Part shown: in pieces, positions 2,436 through 17,120 of the stretch
How the letters are laid out: every line of letters starts with the position of its first letter
Numbering within the stretch: the stretch's first letter is position 1
Assembly (NCBI GenBank): GCA_937980385.1
Contig: CALJPV010000005.1
Coordinates: 87,429 to 151,428 of the forward strand
Source of the DNA: an uncultured Collinsella sp.
GTDB lineage: Bacteria; Actinomycetota; Coriobacteriia; Coriobacteriales; Coriobacteriaceae
Reading direction: 5' to 3'
Length of the DNA: 64,000 bases
Notes under the pieces: generated by a model
Told to the model about the DNA's origin: nothing
What the model saw: the letters and a program-made list of their open reading frames with translations, nothing else
The model's database searches: none
Program-made: the position numbers and the translations under genes

Positions 2436-3425
2436 CTACCTTACCGCGTGCCCGCCGAAGACCATGAGGTCGAGTCCGTTGAGCAGCCCGTCGATCTTGG
2501 CAACTTCATCGTCGGTGAGCCCGACCTCGGCGGCGCCGAGGTTCTCGAGCAGTCGTTCGGGCTTGCGACTGCCCGGGATGGGGATGATATAGGGCTTCTT
2601 CTCGAGCATCCAGGAAAGGGAGACCTGTGCGGGCGTCGCCGCGTGCAGCTCAGCCAGCTCGCGAACGAACCGCATGATGGGCTCGGCGCGCCTTTCGCCT
2701 TCCTCTGTGTACTGCGGCATGCCATCGCGGTAGTCTTGAGCGCCCTCGAATCTGGTGTTGTGGCTGTACGCGCCCGTCAGAAAGCCGTTCGCCATGGGAG
2801 AGAATGCCACGAGGGCGACATTCAGCTCCTCGAGCACGGGGAACAGGGATTCGTTCCAGCGCGCCATCATGGAGTAGCGGTTCTGGACGGCGGAGACGGG
2901 GCACACCGCATCGGCGCGACGCAGGTACTCCTCCGTCGCCTCGGAGATTCCCCAGGCGCGGATCTTACCTTCCTTGATGAGGTCTGCCATGGTGCCTGCA
3001 ACGACCTCGGGGTCAACCTTTGGGTCGATTCGGTGCTGGTAGTAGAGGTCGATGTGGTCGGTGCGCAGCCGGCGCAGGCTCTTCTCCACCGAGATACGGA
3101 TAACCTCGGGGCGCGAGTCCACGAGGATGGTCTTGTCCGGGGCGTGCGTGACGCCGAACTTGGTGGCAATGACAACCTCGTCGCGCACGGGCGCGAGCGC
3201 CTTGCCCACCACGTCCTCGTTGTGCGCCTCGGTCCCGTCGGCGCACGTACCAACGTAGCACTCCGCCGTGTCAAAGAAGGTATAGCCCATCTCGTGGGCC
3301 TGACGGACGACGCTCACAGCCTCGTCGTCGGGCATCGGGTCTCCGCTCGCGTGCGTGATTCCCATGCAGCCCATGCCGAGCGGGCTGACTTCGATGCCGC
3401 TCTTTCCCAAAACGCGCTTGTCCAT
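2436..3425 (-). CDS. aldo/keto reductase (Tas/YajO-like, ~330 aa class)
   Basis: MDKRVLGKSGIEVSPLGMGCMG... classic AKR N-terminus, 329 aa. Confidence 0.85.
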   Translation of the reverse strand: MDKRVLGKSGIEVSPLGMGCMGITHASGDPMPDDEAVSVVRQAHEMGYTFFDTAECYVGTCADGTEAHNEDVVGKALAPVRDEVVIATKFGVTHAPDKTILVDSRPEVIRISVEKSLRRLRTDHIDLYYQHRIDPKVDPEVVAGTMADLIKEGKIRAWGISEATEEYLRRADAVCPVSAVQNRYSMMARWNESLFPVLEELNVALVAFSPMANGFLTGAYSHNTRFEGAQDYRDGMPQYTEEGERRAEPIMRFVRELAELHAATPAQVSLSWMLEKKPYIIPIPGSRKPERLLENLGAAEVGLTDDEVAKIDGLLNGLDLMVFGGHAVR

Positions 3426-3712
3426 TCCTGTTCTCCCTGTCTATGATATTCGTCATTTGTTTGCAAAGTCCACGTCCGCCCGTTCATCGAACTCCGTTAG
3501 GCACATCTCCTGTCGGTGGCTTGTGCTCCTTCATCGCCAAGCGTACGACCGCGAAGCGCTCGGCGGAATCCCCCTTTGGTGCGATGCCCTGAACCCGTGG
3601 GTTATAACCCCGTGCGCACCCCAGCGTTATAGAACCCTCACCAACGGAAACTTCCGCCGGCGCGGCGCCCCTCGTATGGTGGATACGTCAAGTTGCGAGA
3701 AAGGAAGGCACC

Positions 3713-4564
3713 ATGGACTACATCACCTTGAACAACGGCGTCAGGATGCCGCAGCTCGGCTTCGGCGTGTACCAGATCCCGGACGCCGCGGGATGCCAGC
3801 GCGCCGTGGAGGACGCGCTCTCGGTCGGCTACCGGCTGCTCGACACGGCCGCGAGCTACGGCAACGAAGAGGCGGTCGGGGCCGCCATTCGTGCGAGCGG
3901 CCTGCCGCGCGACGAGGTGTTCGTGACGACCAAGCTGTGGATGTCAGATGTGAGCTACGAGGGGGCCAAGCGCGGCTTCGACGCGTCGCTCAAGCGGCTG
4001 GGGCTCGACTACGTCGATCTCTACCTCATCCATCAGCCGTTCGGCGACGTCTTCGGCGCGTGGCGCGCCATGGAGGAGCTCTACGAGCAGGGCGTTATCC
4101 GCGCCATAGGCACAGCTAACTTCTACCCCGATCACCTCGCAAACCTCATCTCGTTCAACCGCATCGCCCCCGCCGTGAACCAAGTCGAGTGCAACGTGTT
4201 CTTCCAGCAGCGCGAGGCGCAGGAGTACATGGCCGGCAAGGAGGTGGCCATGGAGGGTTGGGCGCCCTTTGCGGAGGGCAGAAACGACCTCTTCCGCAAC
4301 GAGGTCCTCGCTCGCATCGGCGAGGCGCACGGCAAGACGGTCGCCCAGGTCGTGTTGCGCTGGCTGCTGCAGCGCGGTGTGGTCTGCATCCCTAAGAGCA
4401 CGCACCGCGATCGCATGGAGCAGAACTTCGACGTCTTCGACTTCGCGCTGGGCGACGACGAGATGGTCGCCATCGCCGCGCTCGACACCGGGCGCAGCGC
4501 GTTCTTCGACCACCACGACCCCGCCACCATCGAATGGATGTCCGGGCTCGTGCGCAACGTGTAG
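3713..4564 (+). CDS. aldo/keto reductase (DkgA-like)
   Basis: AAGGAAGG RBS; [21 protein letters not shown]..., 283 aa, paralogue of the gene at 2-751. Confidence 0.85.
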
Positions 4565-4607
4565 ACGAGCGTCAGACCGCACTGATAACTTACTAGGAGG
4601 AATTGCC

Positions 4608-5771
4608 ATGAACTCATTCACGTACGACTACCCGGTCAGGAACTACTTCGGCGAGGGGGCCATGGACCAGGCACTCGACGCCGAGATGGGTGCCATGGGC
4701 AAGACAGTGATGCTCGCCTACGGCGGAGGCTCGGTCAAACGAACCGGCGTCTACGGCCACGTGGTCGATAAACTCACGAGCGCGGGCAAGCGCGTGGTGG
4801 ACTTCGGCGGCATCATGCCCAATCCGACCTACGAGAAGTGCCAGGAAGGCGCCGCGCTCGCACGCGAGGAGCAGGTCGACTTCATTCTCGCCGTCGGCGG
4901 CGGGTCGGTCTTCGACTGCTGCAAGGTGGTCTCCGCACAGGCGATGCTTGACGACGACATCGAGACGTTCGAGCACGCCGACGGCAAGATACCGAGCTCG
5001 TTCATCCCCATGGGCTGCATCGTGACGCTCTCCGGCACGGGCGCCGAGCAGAACAACGGCGCCGTCATCACCAACGAGGAGACGCACGTGAAGGGTGCCT
5101 ATCTGGGGGCGATACCCATGTGGGCGGCGCTCGACCCGGCACTCACGCTCACCGTACCGCACGCGCAGTTCATGAGCGGCGCGTTCGACACGCTCTCGCA
5201 CTGCATGGAGAGCTATTTCGGAAGCCCGCGCGGACGCAACGTCACCGACGACATCAACCTCACCATCCAACGTAACGTCATCCGCAACATGCGGATCGTC
5301 GCGGACGACGACCAGAACCTCGATGCCAGAAGCGAGCTCGTATACGACTCCGCCATGGCCGAGAACGGCGTGCTCAAGATCGGCAAGTCAACGGACTTCC
5401 AGGCGCACATGATCCAGCACCAGTACGGCGCGTACACCCACACCAACCACGGAATGGGCCTCGCGGTCATCCACCCTGCGCTCTACCGCCACCTGGCCCC
5501 CGAGGCGCCCGCGCAGTTCGCCCGCTGGGCGCGCGAGGTGTGGGACGTCGACGCCAAGGGCAAAGACGACCTTACGGTGGCGCTCGAGGGCATCGACCGC
5601 CTGCAGACGTTCATCGGCGAGATGGGGCTTCCCACGAGCTTCGCCGAGATGGGCTCCGACGCGTCCGACGAGACGCTGCACAAGGTTGCGGACACCTGCG
5701 TGCTCACCGGCGGCTGCGCCAAGAAACTGGAGCGCAGCGAGGTGTTCCAGATTCTGACCGAGTGCCTCTAG
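4608..5771 (+). CDS. iron-containing alcohol dehydrogenase (YqhD/butanol DH-like)
   Basis: AGGAGG RBS at 4595-4600, ATG 4608 (ORF track start 4269 is an upstream extension); MNSFTYDYPVRNYFGEGA..., Fe-ADH family features, 387 aa. Confidence 0.85.
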   Translation: MNSFTYDYPVRNYFGEGAMDQALDAEMGAMGKTVMLAYGGGSVKRTGVYGHVVDKLTSAGKRVVDFGGIMPNPTYEKCQEGAALAREEQVDFILAVGGGSVFDCCKVVSAQAMLDDDIETFEHADGKIPSSFIPMGCIVTLSGTGAEQNNGAVITNEETHVKGAYLGAIPMWAALDPALTLTVPHAQFMSGAFDTLSHCMESYFGSPRGRNVTDDINLTIQRNVIRNMRIVADDDQNLDARSELVYDSAMAENGVLKIGKSTDFQAHMIQHQYGAYTHTNHGMGLAVIHPALYRHLAPEAPAQFARWAREVWDVDAKGKDDLTVALEGIDRLQTFIGEMGLPTSFAEMGSDASDETLHKVADTCVLTGGCAKKLERSEVFQILTECL

Positions 5772-9503: not shown

Positions 9504-12413
9504 CTAATGGTAGTCGTTTGCATACGAACTATAGAAGAGCGCCTTGCAATCGACATCGCTGTAGCCCGTAACGGCATCCTGCACATCGGCGCGCAAGAGG
9601 TTAAGCACCTTGTATACGCCCCCTCCCATGTCCCCAACGAAAAGCACCTGCTTAAACACGTCGGGATACTCACGTAGATAGGCAACGTAACCCCTGAGCT
9701 TGGCAAGCGTGTCACTGAGGAAATCTCCGTGCGGGTCGACGATCGACGGTTTGATTGTCCCGTCGCCGTCCTTCACGAAGAAGAGGAAGTCTGGATGCAG
9801 GGCTTTGCGTCCCACCGAAGACATGTACGGAATCGAAAACGCCTTGGCAGACATGCTGCCCGACGGATTGCGGTAGAAGGCAACCGTGCGATTCTTTGCC
9901 AATTCGTTCCTAACGATATAGTCTTCCGCCGGGTTCAGGTCAAGCGGGCAGAGGCCGTCCTCTTTCTGCACGATATGGCACGGATACTTAGCGAAGTCAT
10001 CCGACGTGCTGGCAGACGTGGGCCACTCTATCTTTGTGAGGCGCTTGCCTTCGGTTTCACGGGCCAGCTCGTCGTAACGCTGCTTTGCCGAGTCGTTAAG
10101 GTAGTCATAATCGCCAGATCCATCGACCTTATCGAAGTATTCCTTTCGGCATTGAGCCGCCCAGCCCTCGAGCGCATCAACGATAGCCCGCGTGCGCACC
10201 GCCGCGGCAAGGCGCAGGTCGCACTCGGGGCGCCCAAGCTCCTTGAAGTTGACGCGACGATACTCATTCGCAAACTCCTTAGTGAAATGCATATCGGCGT
10301 CGCGGGCGGCCTTTCTGAGGCCCTCGGCGTCCGTGCGGGCTTCCTCCTGCTCCTGGTCCTCAGTCTCGTTGAGCTTGTCGAGCGTGATCTTGACGGTCTC
10401 GGCAACCTCTACGTCGTGTTTGGCTTCGCGGTACTCGTCCTCGTTAGCAACGATGTATCCCGTGAGCTTCTGGACGAACTGTTTTTTCACGTCGGCCGCG
10501 GCATTGACATCGAGGCCAGTCTCGACAAGCAGAGTCGCCGTCTTAACCAGGCTCTGGAATTCGTTTCTAGCCTTCTTCGGAATGCGCTGGACGGGGATGG
10601 AATCGAAGGCTGCGCGGATGCCCTGCCACTCCTGATGCGTGAAAGACTGCTCGCGTTTGGTGGGCGGTTTGGGCTTTGCCATGGGCACGGGTTTTACGAC
10701 CGAGACGGGCTGGGTCGGCTCGGTCTGTGTGGAACTTGGCTCAGGTGTCGCAGGTTGCTGCGGGGCAGACGCTGCAACGTAGTTGCCCGTTGCGGGCCGA
10801 GGCGCCAGCTCCGCTCCTAGCGCCGGGACGTCGACGGGCCTGGCCGCCGAGGCAAGCGAGGGCTGCGTTCCCTGCATGTCCAACGGCTCCTGAATCGCGA
10901 TGCCGACAAGCGGCGCCTGGTAGCCGGGTTGTGTCTGCCGCGCCGCCTCGATGGCCTTCTCGTTCTCCTCGTACGCCTTGAGCTCCTGTTGGTAGTCGGC
11001 TTCGGACTTGGGCGCAGCCGCCGTGATAGTCACGGGGTTGAGAACGATGTTCTGCTTGCCAATGGAGCTCTCGCCCATGTCGTCCTTGCGGCCCATGAGG
11101 TAGTCGACCACGTCCTGAGTGCTCTCGGGATTGAACTGGGGCAGGTAGCAGGCGACGGAGTTCAAAAGATCATCGGATTCGATGCGCCGCGCAAGTGGAG
11201 TGCGTACCATACGTCCCACGAGCTGTGCGATATAGGTCGAGTCCGAACGCCTGCGCTGCGAGAAGATGACCTCCGCTCGCGGGCAGTCCCATCCGTTGGA
11301 GACAGCCTCCTTGGCGAAGAGCACGCGAATGCGCGAGGCGTCCTGAACGAACTCGGGCTCGACATAGGGAATGAGGTATTTTCCCGCCGCGATGTCCTTA
11401 TGCTCGCCGAAGACGTTGGCGAACGACATCGCCTCGGAAAGGCCGGGGACCAGGCCCGTGATCTGGTCGCACATCTCAGCCAGGGCCGAGTTGCTCACGT
11501 TGTCCGCCGCTTGGATGAGCAGCAGCGGGTTGACGGGGCTCTCGCCCTCACGGGCACAGTACTCGCCCCATTCGCGGCAAGTCAGGGCATAGCGCTCGCA
11601 CGCCATAGTGAGGTACTGGTGCTCGACCGGGTCGTCCTTCTCTGGCACGCGCAACTCGATGATGTCCTTGAGCAGACCTGACTCCTGGACCTCGCGAGGG
11701 GTCACAGCGACCTTTGGCATACGTACGCGATCGGCGCGCTGGTCCATGGCCGCCTCGAACCTCTGCGGCGTGGCAGAGACCCCGACGACGATGGGCATCG
11801 CTGCACGGCCGTCGAGCCCATCAATGAGGCTGGCGTAGATCGTCGCGGTGCCGCGCTCGCTCGAGGCATTGGCCCCCAGACCGCGATGGGCCTCGTCTAT
11901 GAACAGATAGAGGTTACGCTCCGGGTCCCTGATGGTGCGGTCAAGGATGTCCCAGAACACGCGGCCGGAGTTGGCCTCACTACCCTTGGTGAGCAGGCCG
12001 TTCTTACTGAGTAGGTCCTTGCTGAGGAAATAGACGTGGCGCGGCTCGAGAATGTCGTGCGCGGCTCCGAAGTCGTTGGTAATTGTGACCAGGTGGCGCC
12101 TGTCAAGGATGCTGTCTGCCAGCTTGTCCGCCACGTTTGAGAAACGCACGCTCGTCTGCTCGTTCAGGCTCGGGGAATCCGAGAGCCAAAGAACGACGGC
12201 ATTCTCGTCGGGCATGAGGCTCAGATCGTCGTCTCCGAAGAAGAGCGCTTCGATCGTCGCTGCGCACATGACCGTTTTGCCCGATCCCGTGGGAGATGCG
12301 AGGCATATCGAGGACAGCTCGCCGTCCTGCTCGTAGCGTCGGCGCATCGACTGCAACTTGTTCGCCAGGGTCGCGACCGCACCGGCTTGGAAATCCTTAA
12401 GTTCGACTCTCAT
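9504..12413 (-). CDS. res: Type III restriction enzyme Res subunit (SF2 helicase plus C-terminal domain)
   Basis: Walker A PTGSGKT, DEAH box LFIDEAHRG, motif VI QLVGRMVRT; start ATG 12413 with GGTGAGGT RBS, 4 nt from mod stop (TAA 12416-12418); 970 aa; Pro-rich linker then ~330-aa C-terminal domain. Confidence 0.8.
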   Translation of the reverse strand: MRVELKDFQAGAVATLANKLQSMRRRYEQDGELSSICLASPTGSGKTVMCAATIEALFFGDDDLSLMPDENAVVLWLSDSPSLNEQTSVRFSNVADKLADSILDRRHLVTITNDFGAAHDILEPRHVYFLSKDLLSKNGLLTKGSEANSGRVFWDILDRTIRDPERNLYLFIDEAHRGLGANASSERGTATIYASLIDGLDGRAAMPIVVGVSATPQRFEAAMDQRADRVRMPKVAVTPREVQESGLLKDIIELRVPEKDDPVEHQYLTMACERYALTCREWGEYCAREGESPVNPLLLIQAADNVSNSALAEMCDQITGLVPGLSEAMSFANVFGEHKDIAAGKYLIPYVEPEFVQDASRIRVLFAKEAVSNGWDCPRAEVIFSQRRRSDSTYIAQLVGRMVRTPLARRIESDDLLNSVACYLPQFNPESTQDVVDYLMGRKDDMGESSIGKQNIVLNPVTITAAAPKSEADYQQELKAYEENEKAIEAARQTQPGYQAPLVGIAIQEPLDMQGTQPSLASAARPVDVPALGAELAPRPATGNYVAASAPQQPATPEPSSTQTEPTQPVSVVKPVPMAKPKPPTKREQSFTHQEWQGIRAAFDSIPVQRIPKKARNEFQSLVKTATLLVETGLDVNAAADVKKQFVQKLTGYIVANEDEYREAKHDVEVAETVKITLDKLNETEDQEQEEARTDAEGLRKAARDADMHFTKEFANEYRRVNFKELGRPECDLRLAAAVRTRAIVDALEGWAAQCRKEYFDKVDGSGDYDYLNDSAKQRYDELARETEGKRLTKIEWPTSASTSDDFAKYPCHIVQKEDGLCPLDLNPAEDYIVRNELAKNRTVAFYRNPSGSMSAKAFSIPYMSSVGRKALHPDFLFFVKDGDGTIKPSIVDPHGDFLSDTLAKLRGYVAYLREYPDVFKQVLFVGDMGGGVYKVLNLLRADVQDAVTGYSDVDCKALFYSSYANDYH

Positions 12414-12415
12414 GT

Positions 12416-14362
12416 TTACCTCACCGCATCCTCGGCGGCAATCTTGAACGATTGCAGGTAGTTCTCGTACAGGCGGACGACGTCGAGCCCAGGCAGTTGT
12501 GCCTTGACGGAGGCGTATCGAGCCGTGTCGTCCGTGATCACATAGGCGCACCCTATGCTGGCATTCTGCTTGACGGCGTCTATGAAAGCGCCGACCGAAG
12601 CAAAGTCGAAGAGGACGGCGTAGGCGTCGGCCATGGCAAAGCCCGGCTGCTCGTGCTTGATGATGCTGCCACGCGAACCAGCGCGCAGCCAGAGCAGGGG
12701 CGCGATCTCCTCGAAGGCCACGCCCAGCTCGACGGCGTCCGGGTCTTCGTAGGTGAGGTCAAAGAAGACGGCGTTTTCCTCGAAGCCGTCGGCCATGGGG
12801 AACTCGTCGGTGAACTTGTAGTCACCCTTGATGGAATCGCCCTCGGGCGTCTTGCCCGTGATGGCCGCCGTGACGCGTGGTTTGGTAACGTACTGGCAGA
12901 TGCCCAGCGCCTCCCATTCGGGGTCGCCCTGGCGAAGACCGCGCTTGGTGAGCTTTTTGGATTCGTCCTCGGAGACCTCGTTATTCGTTACGCTGATGGA
13001 GCGCCTGCGCCCGCCGTCCTGATGGTTCAAGCGCATGACGGCATGTGCCGTGGTGCCCGATCCTGAGAAGAAATCGACTACAAGGGCGTCGGGCTTGTCG
13101 GCAACAACGGAAGCGATTGAGAGCTCGGTCGCATAAAGGGACTTTGGAAATGTGAAGCGCCTATCGCCGATGAACTTTTTGATATATCGGCTCCCGTATT
13201 CACCGGCAGAGAACTGCGTGCCACTCCAAACAGTTGTTGGAATGGCAGAGCGCTCTCCCTGCTCTTCGAGAAGCAAGGACCCATCCTCAGCCTTGCCGAT
13301 GAGTTTTATTTCTCCATTCTTGAGACGCTCCTCTTGGGAATCTCCTAGGTAAAGGAGGGAGTACCGATCACTCTTTTTGTTGTACTCACCTACTTTTGCG
13401 CACCCGCGATCAAGCTTGGCCTGTAGAGCATTCTGGGAGATCCTCCAAGTCGCCTCTCGGCCATCGGTCCTAATAGGCCAAACTGCCCTGAGACCCGTTT
13501 TTGTCGGTATCTTTGTCCAGTCTTGTTCAAGGGGGAGAGAAGCGCCGAGCTCCTTAATTGTCGCGGTCTCCTCATCGATATAGATGGGATAGAAGAGGTT
13601 CGGCCTTGCGGTGCGAGCGGCATTGGGACCGCCCCTCAGCAGCCACTCCCAACGTACTTTACGTTGGGAGCGGCTGCTCGACGCGTCATCAGCCACTTTT
13701 TCCTCAAGTTCTCCGAACTCAACGGAATAGAGTCTGCGGTCCACTTGGCACGGCGCGGCGGTGCCAAAAAAGCAAAAGACAGCGTACTCGTCAGCTCTCT
13801 TGAACTGGTTGCCGCGGGCAACCCCGTTCTTGTTTATGGTGATTGAAACCGTCTGGATACCGGTCGCGTTGGGAAAAACGCTCTCTAAAAGAAGCTCAAG
13901 CCTTGCGTACTCCTTCTCGTCGATCGTCACGATGAGTACGGAATCGTTGGGGTTGAGCAGCTGCTTGGCGAGCTTGAGGCGGCGCTCCATGAAGGCAAGC
14001 CACTTGGAGTGGCGATAGGCGTCGGAGCCGTCGACGTAATCGTTGTTGTATTTCCAGTCGCGGGCGCCAGTGTTATAGGGTGGGTCAATATATATGCAGT
14101 CCACTTTGCCTGCATAGGCAAAGGCCAAGGTTTCAAGGGCATGGTAGTTTTCGCCGTTAATGACTACTTGATAGGGCTTATCGCCAGCGCGCTCGACACG
14201 CCCAGTCTCTTTGAGGCCAGCATAAATCGGCTGGTCATATTCAGCAACAGGCACGACATCGTCGACAGCAACGGAGCGGGGCTCACATTCGTTTTCGTCA
14301 TATGAGGGCGATTGATATGGCTTTAGATCAGCAACCCCCCCCGAACGGCATTTACCAACCAT
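12416..14362 (-). CDS. mod: Type III DNA methyltransferase Mod (beta-class N6-adenine MTase), as annotated from internal ATG; likely N-terminally incomplete in this frame
   Basis: DPPYNTG (motif IV) at residue ~96 followed later by FFSGSGTT (motif I), the Type III beta-class order; GENYHALETL...IYIDPPYN resembles EcoP15I-type Mod; no SD before ATG 14362; in-frame stop 14375-14377 just upstream. Confidence 0.8.
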   Translation of the reverse strand: MVGKCRSGGVADLKPYQSPSYDENECEPRSVAVDDVVPVAEYDQPIYAGLKETGRVERAGDKPYQVVINGENYHALETLAFAYAGKVDCIYIDPPYNTGARDWKYNNDYVDGSDAYRHSKWLAFMERRLKLAKQLLNPNDSVLIVTIDEKEYARLELLLESVFPNATGIQTVSITINKNGVARGNQFKRADEYAVFCFFGTAAPCQVDRRLYSVEFGELEEKVADDASSSRSQRKVRWEWLLRGGPNAARTARPNLFYPIYIDEETATIKELGASLPLEQDWTKIPTKTGLRAVWPIRTDGREATWRISQNALQAKLDRGCAKVGEYNKKSDRYSLLYLGDSQEERLKNGEIKLIGKAEDGSLLLEEQGERSAIPTTVWSGTQFSAGEYGSRYIKKFIGDRRFTFPKSLYATELSIASVVADKPDALVVDFFSGSGTTAHAVMRLNHQDGGRRRSISVTNNEVSEDESKKLTKRGLRQGDPEWEALGICQYVTKPRVTAAITGKTPEGDSIKGDYKFTDEFPMADGFEENAVFFDLTYEDPDAVELGVAFEEIAPLLWLRAGSRGSIIKHEQPGFAMADAYAVLFDFASVGAFIDAVKQNASIGCAYVITDDTARYASVKAQLPGLDVVRLYENYLQSFKIAAEDAVR

Positions 14363-14598
14363 AGCAGTTGGGAGCTAGAGTCCTCTTTTTTACCACGCTC
14401 GGGAAGCACCTGTACGACATCGCCCTCCATGATAGGTTTGCCATAAAGGCGAAGTCGCTCTGGACGGTTGTGTTCAAATACAAGCCCAAACTGGCGCTGC
14501 GCAGCAAAGGCGCGGATGTCGGCAGCGAGCTGACGATCGCCCAGCTTGACAGCGCGATCAACAAGGTTCTGAACGACCGCTTGCGCCGTCTGAGACAT
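14323..14598 (-). CDS. mod: 91-codon ORF that appears to be the true N-terminus of Mod, in the -1 frame relative to 12416-14362
   Basis: ATG 14596-14598 overlaps RHH stop (TGATG); LRLYGKPI resembles the h-x-h-x-GK motif of Type III Mod N-termini; its frame and the mod frame are both open only in the 49-nt window 14326-14374, which contains the G8 tract. Confidence 0.55.
   Translation of the reverse strand: MSQTAQAVVQNLVDRAVKLGDRQLAADIRAFAAQRQFGLVFEHNRPERLRLYGKPIMEGDVVQVLPERGKKEDSSSQLLWLVNAVRGGLLI
14335..14342 (-). repeat. G8 homopolymer tract (C8 on + strand) at the mod frame junction
   Basis: Read directly: gcaaCCCCCCCCgaacgg; +1 (G9) or -2 (G6) would fuse the N-terminal ORF to mod. Confidence 0.9.
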
Positions 14599-14765
14599 CA
14601 CTTCTCCCCCTTGCACTTCTCGTCAATCCATTCGCGCAGGACTTTAGCCACCGTCTTATCCTGGCGCGCGGCATAGGACTTAAGAGCCCGCTTATCCTCG
14701 CGGGTTATCGAGAGCGTGAACTTATCTAGCTCCCTTTCGGCATGAACAGCCTGATCTTCCTCCAT
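14598..14765 (-). CDS. ribbon-helix-helix (CopG-like) DNA-binding protein
   Basis: 55 aa MEEDQAVHAERELDKFTLSITREDKRALKSYAARQDKTVAKVLREWIDEK; GGAGGGG SD; stop overlaps next start. Confidence 0.6.
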   Translation of the reverse strand: MEEDQAVHAERELDKFTLSITREDKRALKSYAARQDKTVAKVLREWIDEKCKGEK

Positions 14766-14826: not shown

Positions 14827-14850
14827 GAATACGTAATTACGTAATTACGT
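14827..14850. promoter_or_regulatory. tandem overlapping palindromes TACGTAATTACGTAATTACGTA upstream of the RHH gene
   Basis: Perfect palindromic array in an AT-rich region ~60 nt upstream of the RHH start; candidate operator/promoter. Confidence 0.5.
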
Positions 14851-15200
14851 ATGCCAATTTGAGCCATGCATCACTCAATCACTAGTCAGTATTCGTTGAC
14901 GAATCGTTGGGGATAACGAATATATCGAGGTAGACAGTCGTTTTTACCGTCTGTGAGTACCAGCAAATCGATACTCAAAACGTCGTGAGTACATTTTGAG
15001 TACCAGTCCGAGCGGCCTCTTGCGGGCGGACGCGATCTGCCGGTCAGCATTAATTGAAATAAATTGATGGCGTTGCTTCGGTAATTGAAAACACTTTAAA
15101 AAATACCAGCAAACAATAATCCCAGCTAAACAGCTTGAGAGATTGCGTGGCTGGTTTGCATGTACCACATACACCACAATGCACAAGCATCCATGGCACG

Positions 15201-15238
15201 CAAATAAAAAACGAGGGAGGCCGCATCCAACCTCCCTC
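15201..15238 (-). terminator. rho-independent terminator of guaA
   Basis: GAGGGAGG...CCTCCCTC hairpin with U-tract on minus strand. Confidence 0.7.
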
Positions 15239-15253
15239 GCAAAGAGCTATTTA

Positions 15254-16852
15254 CTATTCCCACTCGATGGTCGCGGGCGGCTTGGACGTGATGTCGTAGC
15301 ACACGCGGTTGGCGCCGGGAACCTCGGCAACGATGCGGCCGGAGATGCGGGCCAGAACGTCATAGGGCAGCTTAGCCCAGTCGGCGGTCATGGCATCGCT
15401 GGACTCGACGGCACGCAGGATGATCGGGCGCTGATAGGTGCGCTCGTCGCCCATAACGCCGACGGACTTGATGTCGGGCAGGACCGCGAAATACTGCCAG
15501 CAGCTGTGCTCGGAGTTGCGCTCGCCGGTCTGCTCAAACAGACGCTGGTTGTAGGCGTCGAGCTCCTCGCGCACGATGGCGTCGGCGTTCTTGAGGATCT
15601 CGAGCTTCTCCTTGTCGACCGCGCCGATGATGCGGATGGCAAGACCCGGGCCCGGGAAGGGCTGACGGAACACGATGTGACCCGGCAGGCCCAGCGCCAG
15701 ACCAAGCGCGCGGACCTCGTCCTTAAAGAAGTGGTCGAGCGGCTCAATGAGGTCGAAGTGCACGCCCTCGGGGAACGGGATCAGGTTGTGATGGCTCTTG
15801 ATGGTGGCCGTCTTGCCGCCCGTCTTGCGAGCGCCGGACTCGATGATGTCGGGGTAGATGGTGCCCTGGGCCAGGTACTTGACCGGCTTGCCATCGGTCT
15901 CGAGCTGCTGCGCCACGGCGAAGAACTCTTTCCAGAACTGCGTACCGATGATGCGGCGCTTCTCCTCGGGCTCAGTCACGCCGGCCAGAAGCTCGGCATA
16001 GCGGTCCTCGGCGTGAACGTGAATAAAGTCGACATCGAACTGCTTGGTGAAGACCTCCTCCACCTGCTCGGGCTCGCCCTTGCGCAGCAGGCCGTGGTTG
16101 ATGAACACGCAGGTCATCTGCTTGCCCACGGCGCGGGCGCCCAGCGCGGCCACGACGGAGGAGTCGACGCCACCGGACAGGGCCAGAATCACGCGGTCGT
16201 CGCCGACCTTCTCGCGGAACTCGGCCGTCATGGTCTCGACCAGGTTGTCCATGCTCCAGTTGGGCTCCAGGCCACAGATCTCAAACAGGAAGTTGCTCAG
16301 CAGCTGCTGACCGTACTCGGAATGCTTGACCTCGGGGTGGAACTGCGTGGTGAAGATCTTGCGCTCGACGCACTCCATGGCGGCAACCGGGCACACGTCG
16401 GTGCTGGCGGTAACGGTAAAGCCCTCGGGCACCTCGGAAACGGCGTCGCGATGGCTCATCCACACGGTCTGCTCCATGGGCGTGGAGTTAAAGAGTTTGG
16501 CGCCGGCCGTGCGCGTGATGGTGGCGCGGCCGTACTCGCCCACCTCGGAGTGGCCGACCTTGCCGCCGAGCGTCACTGCCGTGATCTGATGGCCGTAGCA
16601 AAAGCCCAGAACGGGAAGGCCCAGGTCAAAGATGGCAGGGTCGATGGACGGAGCGTCCTCGGCATACACAGAAGCCGGGCCGCCGGAAAGGATGAGCGCA
16701 GAGGCGTTCATCTCGCGAATCTCGTCGGCCGAGATGTCGCAGGGAACGATCTCGGAATACACGTTGAGGTCGCGGACGCGACGGGCAATGAGCTGACCGT
16801 ACTGCGCACCAAAGTCGAGTACGAGGACCTTTGCGGAAGCCTTTTGATCCAT
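15254..16852 (-). CDS. guaA: GMP synthase (glutamine-hydrolysing)
   Basis: MDQKASAKVLVLDFGAQYGQLIARRVR... GATase plus ATP-PPase SGGVDSS motif; start ATG 16852 (ORF track extension upstream not used); 532 aa. Confidence 0.9.
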   Translation of the reverse strand: MDQKASAKVLVLDFGAQYGQLIARRVRDLNVYSEIVPCDISADEIREMNASALILSGGPASVYAEDAPSIDPAIFDLGLPVLGFCYGHQITAVTLGGKVGHSEVGEYGRATITRTAGAKLFNSTPMEQTVWMSHRDAVSEVPEGFTVTASTDVCPVAAMECVERKIFTTQFHPEVKHSEYGQQLLSNFLFEICGLEPNWSMDNLVETMTAEFREKVGDDRVILALSGGVDSSVVAALGARAVGKQMTCVFINHGLLRKGEPEQVEEVFTKQFDVDFIHVHAEDRYAELLAGVTEPEEKRRIIGTQFWKEFFAVAQQLETDGKPVKYLAQGTIYPDIIESGARKTGGKTATIKSHHNLIPFPEGVHFDLIEPLDHFFKDEVRALGLALGLPGHIVFRQPFPGPGLAIRIIGAVDKEKLEILKNADAIVREELDAYNQRLFEQTGERNSEHSCWQYFAVLPDIKSVGVMGDERTYQRPIILRAVESSDAMTADWAKLPYDVLARISGRIVAEVPGANRVCYDITSKPPATIEWE

Positions 16853-17120
16853 GGTATCCCCCTCTTGTTGGCGGGGAGCCGGTGCCCGCCCGCGCGAATA
16901 AACGAAAATTGCTTTCATAGTGTACACGTTATATGGGGTTTCTCGTCCCTCGCAGCCATCAGCGCACGGCAAACGCACGACCTGGACTCCTATTTGACGA
17001 CAATTGAAGTGTTACCAACCGTTACAGATGATGTAATACGTTTGAACATTCGACGCCCTGTGCCACAATACTGCCGAACGACTCCGCCTCTGTGGCGGCA
17101 AATACGATAGGAATACCAGC

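What the first reader, a model, noticed from the sequence alone, without database searches (positions are those of the whole stretch)
12416..14765. Type III mod gene split by a G8 homopolymer: candidate phase-variable (phasevarion-type) methyltransferase currently in the OFF frame
The mod ORF (DPPY then FxGxG order, EcoP15I-like) begins at an ATG with no SD and has an in-frame stop 4 codons upstream. A 91-codon ORF with good coupling to the upstream RHH gene (TGATG) and a Type III Mod-like N-terminus (LRLYGKPI) runs in the -1 frame. The two frames are simultaneously open only across 14326-14374, and that window contains a run of eight G (14335-14342). G9 or G6 would yield one ~727-aa Mod. Homopolymer-driven ON/OFF switching of Type III mod genes is the established phasevarion mechanism in several host-adapted pathogens. 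It would be notable here in a high-GC gut actinobacterium, and because res stays in frame it would mean unmethylated sites while Res is intact. The alternative is a homopolymer sequencing error.
Basis: partly seen in the sequence, partly recalled or inferred. Interest (0 to 1): 0.8.

Follow-up and report, generated by a model that had tools for sequence, protein, structure and literature searches.

The report
Phase-variable Type III methylase in Collinsella
A restriction-modification methylase gene of the gut bacterium Collinsella is interrupted by a run of eight G's. The same run is 7 to 11 G's long in hundreds of other public assemblies, so it is very probably a natural slippage on/off switch caught in the off state, a known kind of switch not previously described in this organism.

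Summary
On the minus strand, an RHH gene (14765-14598) is followed by a Type III mod gene. A G8 run (14335-14342) splits mod into a 91-codon 5' ORF (14598-14323) and a 648-codon 3' ORF (14362-12416). G9 or G6 restores a 727- or 726-aa Mod. An intact res (12413-9504) follows.

The organism is Collinsella (aerofaciens group). In 71 non-redundant related loci collected without regard to tract length, the run is G8 in 7, G9 (ON) in 49, G10 in 14 and G11 in 1. About 31% are out of frame.

Evidence that the polymorphism is real:
- Identical 900-nt flanks carry G8, G9 and G10.
- Tract length shows no phylogenetic signal.
- OFF calls are not linked to low coverage.
- Cultured isolates at about 26x coverage carry G8 or G10.
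- Exact-sequence look-ups find the G7, G8, G10 and G11 products of this haplotype on 22 to 519 contigs each.

The gene family has at least 9 tract-bearing specificity-domain alleles between near-identical termini. A published survey found neither MutS-MutL nor NucS in Coriobacteriia.

[quoted passage not shown] This is a new member of a known kind. Reversibility within a clone, methylation and any regulon remain untested. Because Res needs Mod, OFF silences restriction as well.

The parts
14830..14851 (-). Palindromic 8-bp repeat array, (TACGTAAT)x2 + TACGTA, upstream of the RHH gene. It is the probable operator or promoter element of the operon.
   Evidence: Conserved in 104 of 105 related loci. 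Copy number is 1, 2 or 3 in 7, 95 and 5 loci. The operator role is inferred.
14598..14765 (-). Small ribbon-helix-helix gene (55 aa). Its stop overlaps the mod start (TGATG). It is the probable transcriptional controller of the operon.
   Evidence: Sub-threshold Pfam hit to PF21432 56B_RHH: E = 1.2e-4, 22.4 bits against a cutoff of 27.2. Present directly upstream of mod in all related loci listed.
14323..14598 (-). 5' segment of mod. In the G8 state it reads as a 91-codon ORF ending RGGLLI*. It is the genuine N-terminus of Mod.
   Evidence: The N-terminus aligns to the Type III MTase profile from residue 21 and to full-length homologues, including distant phyla.
14335..14342 (-). Poly-G tract, G8 here (OFF). 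G9 is ON and encodes Arg-Gly-Gly (CGG GGG GGG) followed by Val (GTT).
   Evidence: Lengths of 7 to 11 are seen in relatives.
12416..14362 (-). 3' segment of mod (648-codon ORF from an internal ATG without an SD). It contains DPPY (14075-14086), the variable central target-recognition region (about 13076-13909) and FFSGSGTT (13049-13072).
   Evidence: The 645 residues shared with the G9 and G10 products of the same allele are identical in sequence.
13640..13697 (-). Two 8-nt direct repeats, AGTGGCTG (13690-13697 and 13640-13647), 50 nt apart. Both are intact here. In other strains the intervening 50 nt are deleted, which irreversibly frameshifts mod.
9504..12413 (-). res (969 aa, intact). Its ATG lies 2 nt after the mod stop, and its SD lies inside the end of mod, so translational coupling is likely.
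   Evidence: Pfam ResIII, PADLOC REase_III, junction sequence. It is 969 aa in every locus where it is complete, apart from two 961-aa variants and one lineage with a 2-nt insertion.

Best explanation
This is a slipped-strand, phase-variable Type III restriction-modification operon (RHH-mod-res) of Collinsella, captured with mod OFF.

**How it most likely works**
- The poly-G tract lies in codons 86-89 of mod and gains or loses single G's during replication.
- G9 (also G6 or G12) gives the 727-aa Mod.
- G8 or G11 stops translation after 91-92 codons. G7 or G10 stops it after 89-90 codons.
- Coriobacteriia are reported to have neither MutS-MutL nor NucS, so slippage loops would go uncorrected and the tract would be hypermutable.
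- Mod carries site recognition and supports Res, and res is probably translationally coupled to mod. OFF should therefore abolish both methylation and restriction, which avoids self-cleavage.
- Populations would then be mixtures of R-M-proficient and R-M-deficient cells. Many alternative specificity (TRD) alleles sit on the same switch.

**Shown here:** gene identity, the frame logic, pervasive and recurrent tract-length polymorphism on identical backgrounds, and TRD allelic diversity.

**Inferred:** reversibility and rate within a clone, loss of methylation and restriction in OFF cells, and the selective benefit (phage/HGT trade-off and/or gene regulation).
For: **Gene identity**
- The fused ORF is a full-length Type III MTase (PDB relatives Mbo45V, a Mod, and EcoP15I Mod).
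- 727-aa homologues cover it 100%.

**Tract census, unbiased for length**
- GTDB species representatives: G8 x4, G9 x29, G10 x4, G11 x1.
- Metagenome DNA-pattern scan: G8 x3, G9 x21, G10 x10.

**Recurrence**
- Five groups of loci with identical 900-nt flanks carry two or three different tract lengths.
- Fitch parsimony needs 17 changes on 65 tips, against 17.8 for randomised tips and at most 14 for any nucleotide site.

**Not an error signature**
- Isolates: ATCC 25986 is G9 at 290x, strain 1001216st1_F6 is G10 at 27x, and strain D35st2_F2 is G8 at 26x.
- Median coverage is 6.5 for ON and 6.6 for OFF, Mann-Whitney p = 0.84.

**Exact-sequence census**
- The window's allele occurs as the G9 727-aa protein on 141 contigs, the G10 645-aa protein on 38 and the G8 648-aa protein on 13.
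- The N-terminal peptides of G7, G8, G10 and G11 occur on 106, 136, 519 and 22 contigs.

**Same sample**
- Two contigs of one metagenome assembly (GCA_964261755.1) are identical over 4185 nt except G9 versus G10.

**Derived tract**
- Relatives outside this clade encode D-G-Q, S-G-D and similar at the same position with ordinary codons.

**Alleles**
- There are 18 central-region groups below 80% identity between conserved termini. Nine of them contain tract-bearing loci, and OFF states occur in several.

**Repair and rate**
- Analysed Coriobacteriia lack NucS and MutS-MutL (PMC5290159).
- Nine-base mononucleotide tracts are reported to switch at about 10^-3 and are the published threshold for calling a mod gene phase-variable (PMC5909438).
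Against: - No read-level or single-clone data were available. Reversible, high-frequency switching within a lineage is therefore not demonstrated.
- Part of the length spread in mass-produced assemblies could be an assembler or Illumina homopolymer artefact. G7 is common in the exact-sequence census, which is dominated by Logan assemblies, yet it is absent from the 71 loci of the two DNA-level scans.
- The window's G8 is one base below the published G9 criterion.
- No methylome or expression data exist for this system.
- About a quarter of assessable loci (14 of 59) also carry other mod lesions: the 50-nt and 11-nt deletions, nonsense mutations and further truncations, at least one of which may only be a contig end. 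Some OFF states may therefore be steps towards decay rather than switching.
Confidence: 0.8

Rival explanations
1. The G8 in this window is a homopolymer sequencing or assembly error. The organism actually carries G9 and an intact mod.
For: - G9 is the modal length, at 49 of 71 non-redundant loci.
- Homopolymers of this length are error-prone on all platforms.
- The sequencing technology of the window is unknown.
- The discrepant G7 frequencies between collections hint that some calls are artefacts.
Against: - The exact G8 products of this haplotype recur on many independent contigs from different samples and assemblers: 13 to 22 contigs for the 648-aa ORF and 136 for the 91-aa ORF, the latter indexed in 280 blocks.
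- An isolate at 26x coverage is G8.
- OFF calls are not enriched at low coverage.
Confidence: 0.1
2. mod is simply a decaying pseudogene. The frameshift is an irreversible inactivating mutation like any other, and the R-M system is being lost in this strain.
For: - Irreversible lesions are common in this gene: a recurrent 50-nt microhomology deletion, an 11-nt deletion and nonsense mutations.
- One lineage has a 2-nt insertion in res.
- This shows that loss of function is tolerated or favoured.
Against: - The 3' ORF of the window has no other lesion. Its 645 residues shared with the ON protein found on 141 contigs are identical.
- res is intact.
- The same flanks occur with G8, G9 and G10.
- Tract changes recur about 17 times on the tree.
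- Lengths stay within one or two of the ON length rather than drifting.
Confidence: 0.05
3. The G8 allele still yields functional Mod without any DNA change. Routes would be transcriptional slippage on the G run, +1/-1 ribosomal frameshifting in the 49-nt two-frame overlap, or initiation at the internal ATG. On this reading the gene is constitutively (weakly) ON rather than switched.
For: - The two frames overlap only around the tract.
- RNA polymerase slippage on long homopolymers is an established phenomenon (general knowledge).
- A 648-aa ORF with both catalytic motifs remains open.
Against: - There is no SD before ATG 14362.
- The missing N-terminal roughly 80 residues are conserved across phyla.
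- No recognisable frameshift stimulator was looked for or found.
- If G8 were functionally equal to G9, the strong mode at G9 would be unexplained.
- At best this route makes OFF leaky.
Confidence: 0.05

Closest known systems
Helicobacter pylori modH (also modJ, modL) and Campylobacter upsaliensis modU: Type III mod genes switched by an intragenic poly-G tract, each with many TRD alleles (PMC5909438)
   Same: - A mononucleotide G tract lies inside the mod ORF.
- ON/OFF is set by frame.
- Multiple alleles differ only in the central recognition domain.
- The hosts are described (from my own knowledge) as lacking a functional MutS/MutL-type mismatch repair pathway.
- The organisms are host-associated.
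   Different: - The host here is a high-GC Gram-positive gut commensal (Coriobacteriia), not an epsilonproteobacterial pathogen.
- An RHH gene with a repeat operator precedes mod.
- No methylome, switching rate or regulon has been measured.
modA phasevarions of Haemophilus influenzae and Neisseria (PMC1976455, PMC2667262, PMC4525171)
   Same: - Phase-variable Type III Mod.
- A family of TRD alleles on a conserved scaffold.
- Population heterogeneity in ON/OFF state.
   Different: - Those systems use tetranucleotide repeats (from my own knowledge).
- A regulon is demonstrated experimentally there.
- res is often inactivated there (PMC3874151), whereas here res is intact in almost all loci. Defence rather than regulation may therefore be the main role.
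Reversible homopolymer frameshifts in mismatch-repair-deficient Actinobacteria, for example the 7C tract of Mycobacterium tuberculosis glpK (recalled from general knowledge, not checked here)
   Same: - The phylum is the same.
- A short G/C homopolymer acts as a reversible frameshift switch where canonical MMR is absent.
   Different: - The target there is a metabolic gene, not an R-M system.
- The tract is shorter.
- Mycobacteria have NucS, whereas Coriobacteriia are reported to lack even that (PMC5290159).
Predicted SSR-containing Type III mod genes of commensal and environmental bacteria in the REBASE survey, for example Corynebacterium casei M.Cca44701ORF9495P (PMC5909438)
   Same: It is an in-silico candidate defined by an SSR of threshold length in a Type III mod gene, in a non-pathogen, including an actinobacterium.
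   Different: - The survey text says such organisms often show a single mod without allelic diversification.
- Here there are many TRD alleles and direct population-level length polymorphism.
- Collinsella is not mentioned in the main text. The supplement could not be read.

Membership tests
Type III R-M modification subunit (beta-class N6-adenine MTase) | Motif order: DPPY (motif IV), then a variable recognition domain, then FxGxG (motif I) | tested here: met
   DPPY is at fused residues 172-175 and FFSGSGTT at 510-517. 278 aa lie between the conserved TIDEKE and DFFSGSG blocks that bracket the variable region. Pfam N6_N4_Mtase matches residues 166-527.
Type III R-M modification subunit (beta-class N6-adenine MTase) | Full-length similarity to known Type III Mod proteins | tested here: met
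   PADLOC MTase_III PDLC03645: E = 1.7e-204, residues 21-721 against profile positions 15-706 of 709. PDB hits are Mbo45V, a Mod protein and EcoP15I Mod.
Type III R-M modification subunit (beta-class N6-adenine MTase) | Adjacent co-oriented res gene encoding a helicase-type restriction subunit | tested here: met
   A 969-aa ORF starts 2 nt after the mod stop. It hits Pfam ResIII and PADLOC REase_III, E = 4e-12.
Type III R-M modification subunit (beta-class N6-adenine MTase) | m6A methylation of a short asymmetric motif, and ATP-dependent cleavage that needs two sites | not testable with these tools
   Needs a methylome and biochemistry.
SSR-mediated (slipped-strand) phase-variable gene | A simple repeat inside the ORF, of a length known to switch (G9 or longer in PMC5909438) | tested here: met
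   The modal allele is G9, and G10 and G11 are also seen. The window itself is G8, one below the threshold.
SSR-mediated (slipped-strand) phase-variable gene | Repeat-length polymorphism among closely related strains that toggles the reading frame | tested here: met
   G7 to G11 occur on the same haplotype. Identical 900-nt flanks carry different lengths. There are 17 independent changes on 65 tips.
SSR-mediated (slipped-strand) phase-variable gene | High-frequency, reversible switching within a clonal population | not testable with these tools
   No reads or cultures were available. The nearest evidence is two contigs of one metagenome assembly that differ only by G9 versus G10. Their sequence upstream of the module differs, so these are two co-resident strains rather than one clone.
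Phasevarion (phase-variable regulon controlled by a Mod) | Multiple mod alleles that differ in the central TRD | tested here: met
   There are 18 groups below 80% identity in the central region, with 33-76% identity between groups. Nine groups include tract-bearing loci.
Phasevarion (phase-variable regulon controlled by a Mod) | Genome-wide methylation differs between ON and OFF, and this changes the expression of a gene set | not testable with these tools
   Needs a methylome and RNA-seq of ON and OFF clones.
Phasevarion (phase-variable regulon controlled by a Mod) | res frequently inactivated (typical but not obligatory; PMC3874151) | tested here: not met
   res is intact in the window and in all loci where it is complete (969 or 961 aa). 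The only exception is one lineage with a 2-nt insertion.

The most novel reading that the evidence does not exclude
Collinsella, an abundant human gut commensal reported to have no known mismatch repair, runs a true phasevarion. A poly-G switch on a family of at least 9 Mod specificities would reversibly reprogramme methylation and gene expression. It would sit alongside a second length-variable 8-bp repeat in the operon's operator. Roughly a third of natural populations would be in the OFF state at any time. That would extend epigenetic bet-hedging of the pathogen type to a dominant commensal actinobacterium. Strain-level phenotypes, including links between Collinsella and host metabolism, would then depend on an unassembled one-base difference.
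Probability: 0.3. Interest if true: 0.7.

Novelty: new member of a known kind. Interest (0 to 1): 0.45.

Why it matters
**Practical consequences**
- Collinsella genomes and MAGs will be annotated with a 'split' or 'pseudogene' mod, or with spurious 89- to 92-aa hypothetical proteins. One example is WP_199572798.1, which is just the OFF state.
- Transformation and phage work on Collinsella should take the tract length of the stock into account.

**Biological consequences**
- The locus gives a clean, countable marker of slipped-strand mutation in a bacterial class reported to lack every known mismatch-repair system.
- It shows that the mod-allele-plus-SSR architecture known from mucosal pathogens also exists in a prevalent gut commensal.
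- In that commensal, about 30% of sampled populations have the system switched off.
- Existing metagenome reads and a few isolates are enough to test whether this modulates phage defence and HGT, or also gene expression.

Tried and rejected
1. **Composition-only significance.** A G8 is not rarer than chance in dinucleotide shuffles: mean 2.58, and 84 of 100 shuffles have at least one. I dropped that argument and used codon usage and polymorphism instead.
2. **Literature.** No paper pairs Collinsella with 'phasevarion'. The only paper combining Collinsella, 'phase-variable' and 'methyltransferase' is an unrelated gastric cancer review. A search on Collinsella aerofaciens, restriction-modification and methylome listed nothing relevant among the papers shown. 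The gut epigenetic phase-variation preprint (PMC11741434) does not mention Collinsella or SSRs. The REBASE survey supplement is not held, so I could not check whether a Collinsella mod is listed there.
3. **Stand-alone 91-aa protein.** Rejected. Every member of its cluster that was listed is an 89- to 92-aa frameshift product of the same N-terminus.
4. **A second SSR as the cause of the extra truncations near codon 325.** Rejected. There is no homopolymer there. The cause is a 50-nt deletion between 8-nt direct repeats.
5. **OFF calls as low-coverage artefacts.** Not supported.
6. **One clonal OFF lineage.** Rejected by the parsimony and haplotype tests.
7. I did not use structure prediction or the representative-protein search. 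Gene identity was already unambiguous.
Full report
**1. The observation**

All genes lie on the minus strand.
- A 55-codon gene (14765-14598) has a weak ribbon-helix-helix hit: PF21432, E = 1.2e-4, below the curated cutoff.
- Its stop overlaps an ATG at 14598 (TGATG), which is preceded by GGGGGAG.
- That ATG opens a 91-codon ORF ending at TAA 14325-14323.
- A second ORF, in another frame, runs from ATG 14362 to 12416 (648 codons). It has a stop five codons upstream and no Shine-Dalgarno sequence.
- The two frames are both open only between 14374 and 14326. That stretch contains G8 at 14335-14342, the only G/C run of 7 or more in the whole window.
- Inserting one G gives a single 727-aa ORF. 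Removing two gives 726 aa.

A lone G8 is not compositionally surprising. Dinucleotide shuffles give a mean of 2.58 per window. It is, however, built from disfavoured codons. GGG is 14.5% of Gly codons and CGG is 13% of Arg codons, and none of 135 Gly-Gly pairs in 26 other ORFs of the window is GGG-GGG.

**2. What the gene is**

- The fused protein matches a Type III methyltransferase profile from end to end: PADLOC PDLC03645, residues 21-721 against positions 15-706 of 709, E = 1.7e-204.
- It hits Pfam N6_N4_Mtase and the solved Type III Mod proteins Mbo45V, a Mod, and EcoP15I Mod.
- It has the beta-class motif order DPPY, then a variable region, then FxGxG.
- A 969-aa res gene (ResIII helicase domain, PADLOC REase_III) starts 2 nt after the mod stop, with its SD inside mod.
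- The 91-codon ORF is therefore the true N-terminus of Mod. It aligns to homologues in unrelated phyla that have no interruption.

**3. Whose gene it is**

A scan of one genome per GTDB species returned 46 Coriobacteriia loci. Nearly all were Collinsella, including C. aerofaciens ATCC 25986, C. acetigenes and many MAGs. Their N-terminal 231 residues are 76-100% identical to the window's. In most of them the operon sits beside guaA, as in the window.

**4. The tract is polymorphic, recurrently, on identical backgrounds**

*Protein level.* Public databases hold three kinds of near-identical product:
- 727-aa proteins reading ...VRGGVADL... (G9);
- 648-aa proteins starting MVGKYRSGGVADL (G8, the window's frame);
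- 645-aa proteins starting MPFGGGVADL (G10, the third frame).

*DNA level.* Two collections were sampled without regard to tract length.

| Collection | G8 | G9 | G10 | G11 |
|---|---|---|---|---|
| GTDB species representatives | 4 | 29 | 4 | 1 |
| Metagenome contigs (pattern allowing 5-17 G's) | 3 | 21 | 10 | 0 |

After removing one duplicate contig, 22 of 71 loci (31%) are out of frame.

*Recurrence.*
- Five groups of loci with identical 900-nt flanks contain two or three different tract lengths.
- On a neighbour-joining tree of the flanks, tract length needs 17 changes on 65 tips. Randomly shuffled tips need 17.8, and no nucleotide site needs more than 14.
- So essentially every OFF allele is an independent event.

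*Exact-sequence look-ups in about 15 billion proteins.*

| Tract | Whole-gene product of the window's own allele (contigs) | N-terminal peptide of this haplotype (contigs) |
|---|---|---|
| G7 | not looked up | 106 |
| G8 | 648 aa: 13 | 136 |
| G9 | 727 aa: 141 | none (ON) |
| G10 | 645 aa: 38 | 519 |
| G11 | not looked up | 22 |

NCBI even carries the G10 fragment as WP_199572798.1, 'MULTISPECIES: hypothetical protein [Collinsella]'.

*Same sample.* Two contigs of one NCBI metagenome assembly (GCA_964261755.1; 2.33 Mb and 1.37 Mb) are identical over 4185 nt of RHH-mod-res except for G9 versus G10.

**5. Is it sequencing error?**

I cannot see reads, so the window's own call is not proven. The polymorphism as a whole, however, is not an error signature.
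- Cultured isolates assembled at 26-27x coverage carry G8 (D35st2_F2) and G10 (1001216st1_F6). ATCC 25986 at 290x carries G9.
- Where contig names give coverage, ON and OFF loci have the same median: 6.5 against 6.6, Mann-Whitney p = 0.84.
- G8 appears in SPAdes, MEGAHIT and Logan assemblies of many different samples.

One caution remains. G7 is frequent in the exact-sequence census, which is dominated by Logan assemblies, but it is absent from the 71 loci of the two DNA scans. Some fraction of calls in mass-produced assemblies may therefore be artefactual.

**6. Why the tract should be hypermutable here**

- A published survey found that all analysed Coriobacteriia lack both MutS-MutL and NucS (PMC5290159).
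- That parallels Campylobacter and Helicobacter, whose poly-G tracts are the classic mononucleotide switches.
- The REBASE survey of Type III mod genes uses G9 as the threshold for calling a mononucleotide tract phase-variable. It cites switching rates of about 10^-3 for 9-base tracts (PMC5909438).
- The tract is a derived feature of the C. aerofaciens-group clade. Neighbouring lineages encode D-G-Q, S-G-D, C-G-S and similar at the same position with ordinary codons.

**7. Allelic specificity domains**

- I compared the region between the conserved TIDEKE and DFFSGSG blocks (261-278 aa) in 182 proteins with otherwise near-identical N- and C-termini.
- It falls into 18 groups at an 80% identity threshold, with 33-76% identity between groups.
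- Nine groups contain loci in which I verified the tract. OFF lengths occur in at least six of those groups.
- This architecture, a conserved scaffold with a swappable TRD and an SSR, is the hallmark of modA, modH and modM families.
- The central non-homologous third of Type III Mod proteins is what sets specificity (PMC3874151).

**8. Consequences of OFF**

- In Type III systems Mod recognises the site and directs Res, and Mod expression raises the amount of Res (PMC3874151).
- Here res is probably also translationally coupled to mod.
- mod-OFF should therefore silence restriction as well.
- res is intact in the window and in every locus where it is complete (969 aa, or 961 aa in two variants). 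The exception is one lineage with a 2-nt GT insertion.
- That argues that the system is kept as a working R-M system and has not degenerated into a pure regulator. A regulatory role is possible but untested.

**9. Other lesions**

Among 59 loci where mod could be assessed after correcting the tract to G9, 14 have a further truncation.
- The commonest is a 50-nt deletion between two AGTGGCTG repeats. It occurs in two different TRD backgrounds. Both repeats are intact in the window at 13690-13697 and 13640-13647.
- One locus has an 11-nt deletion.
- Two loci have nonsense codons.
- The remaining truncations were not examined in detail, and at least one (L009) may only be a contig end.
- Within the deletion lineage the tract still varies (G8, G9, G10). 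This is what intrinsic hypermutability without selection predicts.
- Loss of Mod is thus repeatedly tolerated or favoured. The G tract offers the reversible route.

**10. Verdict**

- It is a new member of a well-known kind. I found no description of it in the searchable literature.
- It is not a new mechanism.
- What remains to be shown is within-clone reversibility, the methylated motif, and whether the switch serves defence and HGT trade-offs, gene regulation, or both.

Noticed in passing
window 14830-14851 (minus strand, upstream of the RHH gene): A palindromic 8-bp repeat, (TACGTAAT)n + TACGTA. It is conserved in 104 of 105 related loci. Its copy number varies: n = 1 in 7 loci, n = 2 in 95 and n = 3 in 5. 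It is probably the RHH operator, and it could be a second length-variable control element of the operon.
   Followed up: partly
window 13640-13697; L035, L099, L104, L117, L133, L134, L108, L122; L110: A recurrent 50-nt deletion between two AGTGGCTG direct repeats inside mod. It is seen in two different TRD backgrounds. L110 carries an 11-nt deletion nearby. Both are irreversible frameshifts. The window has both repeats intact.
   Followed up: yes
L137 (res at about 3687-5184) and L151, both from NCBI GCA_964261755.1: Two large contigs of one metagenome assembly share a 2-nt GT insertion that splits res into 237 + 747 aa. mod stays intact and differs only by G9 versus G10. This is a natural res-null, mod-variable lineage, the configuration typical of pure phasevarions.
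   Followed up: partly
L034 (Collinsella tanakaei An791), G11 at about 2984-2994, 6 nt upstream of the mod ATG at 3001: A more distant homologue lacks the intragenic tract. Instead it has a G11 run immediately upstream of the start codon, in the ribosome-binding region. This may be an independent, translational or transcriptional form of the same switch.
   Followed up: no
L092, L095, L099, L141, L146, L150, L152, L154 (upstream of the RHH gene): The RHH-mod-res module lies next to guaA in most genomes. In others it is flanked by Abi_2, Y1 transposase, DUF3800/HTH_17 or ABC-transporter genes. This suggests a mobile module or a variable defence island.
   Followed up: no
protein databases: WP_199572798.1 (90 aa) and the 89- to 92-aa cluster of 180 members: The N-terminal fragments of Mod produced by G7, G8, G10 and G11 are annotated as independent hypothetical proteins or as 'adenine-specific DNA-methyltransferase'. 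This is an annotation artefact of the switch.
   Followed up: yes
window 15143-17110 (+) against 15254-16978 (-): The 655-codon plus-strand ORF has no family hit. It is a shadow ORF of guaA (GMP synthase) on the opposite strand.
   Followed up: partly
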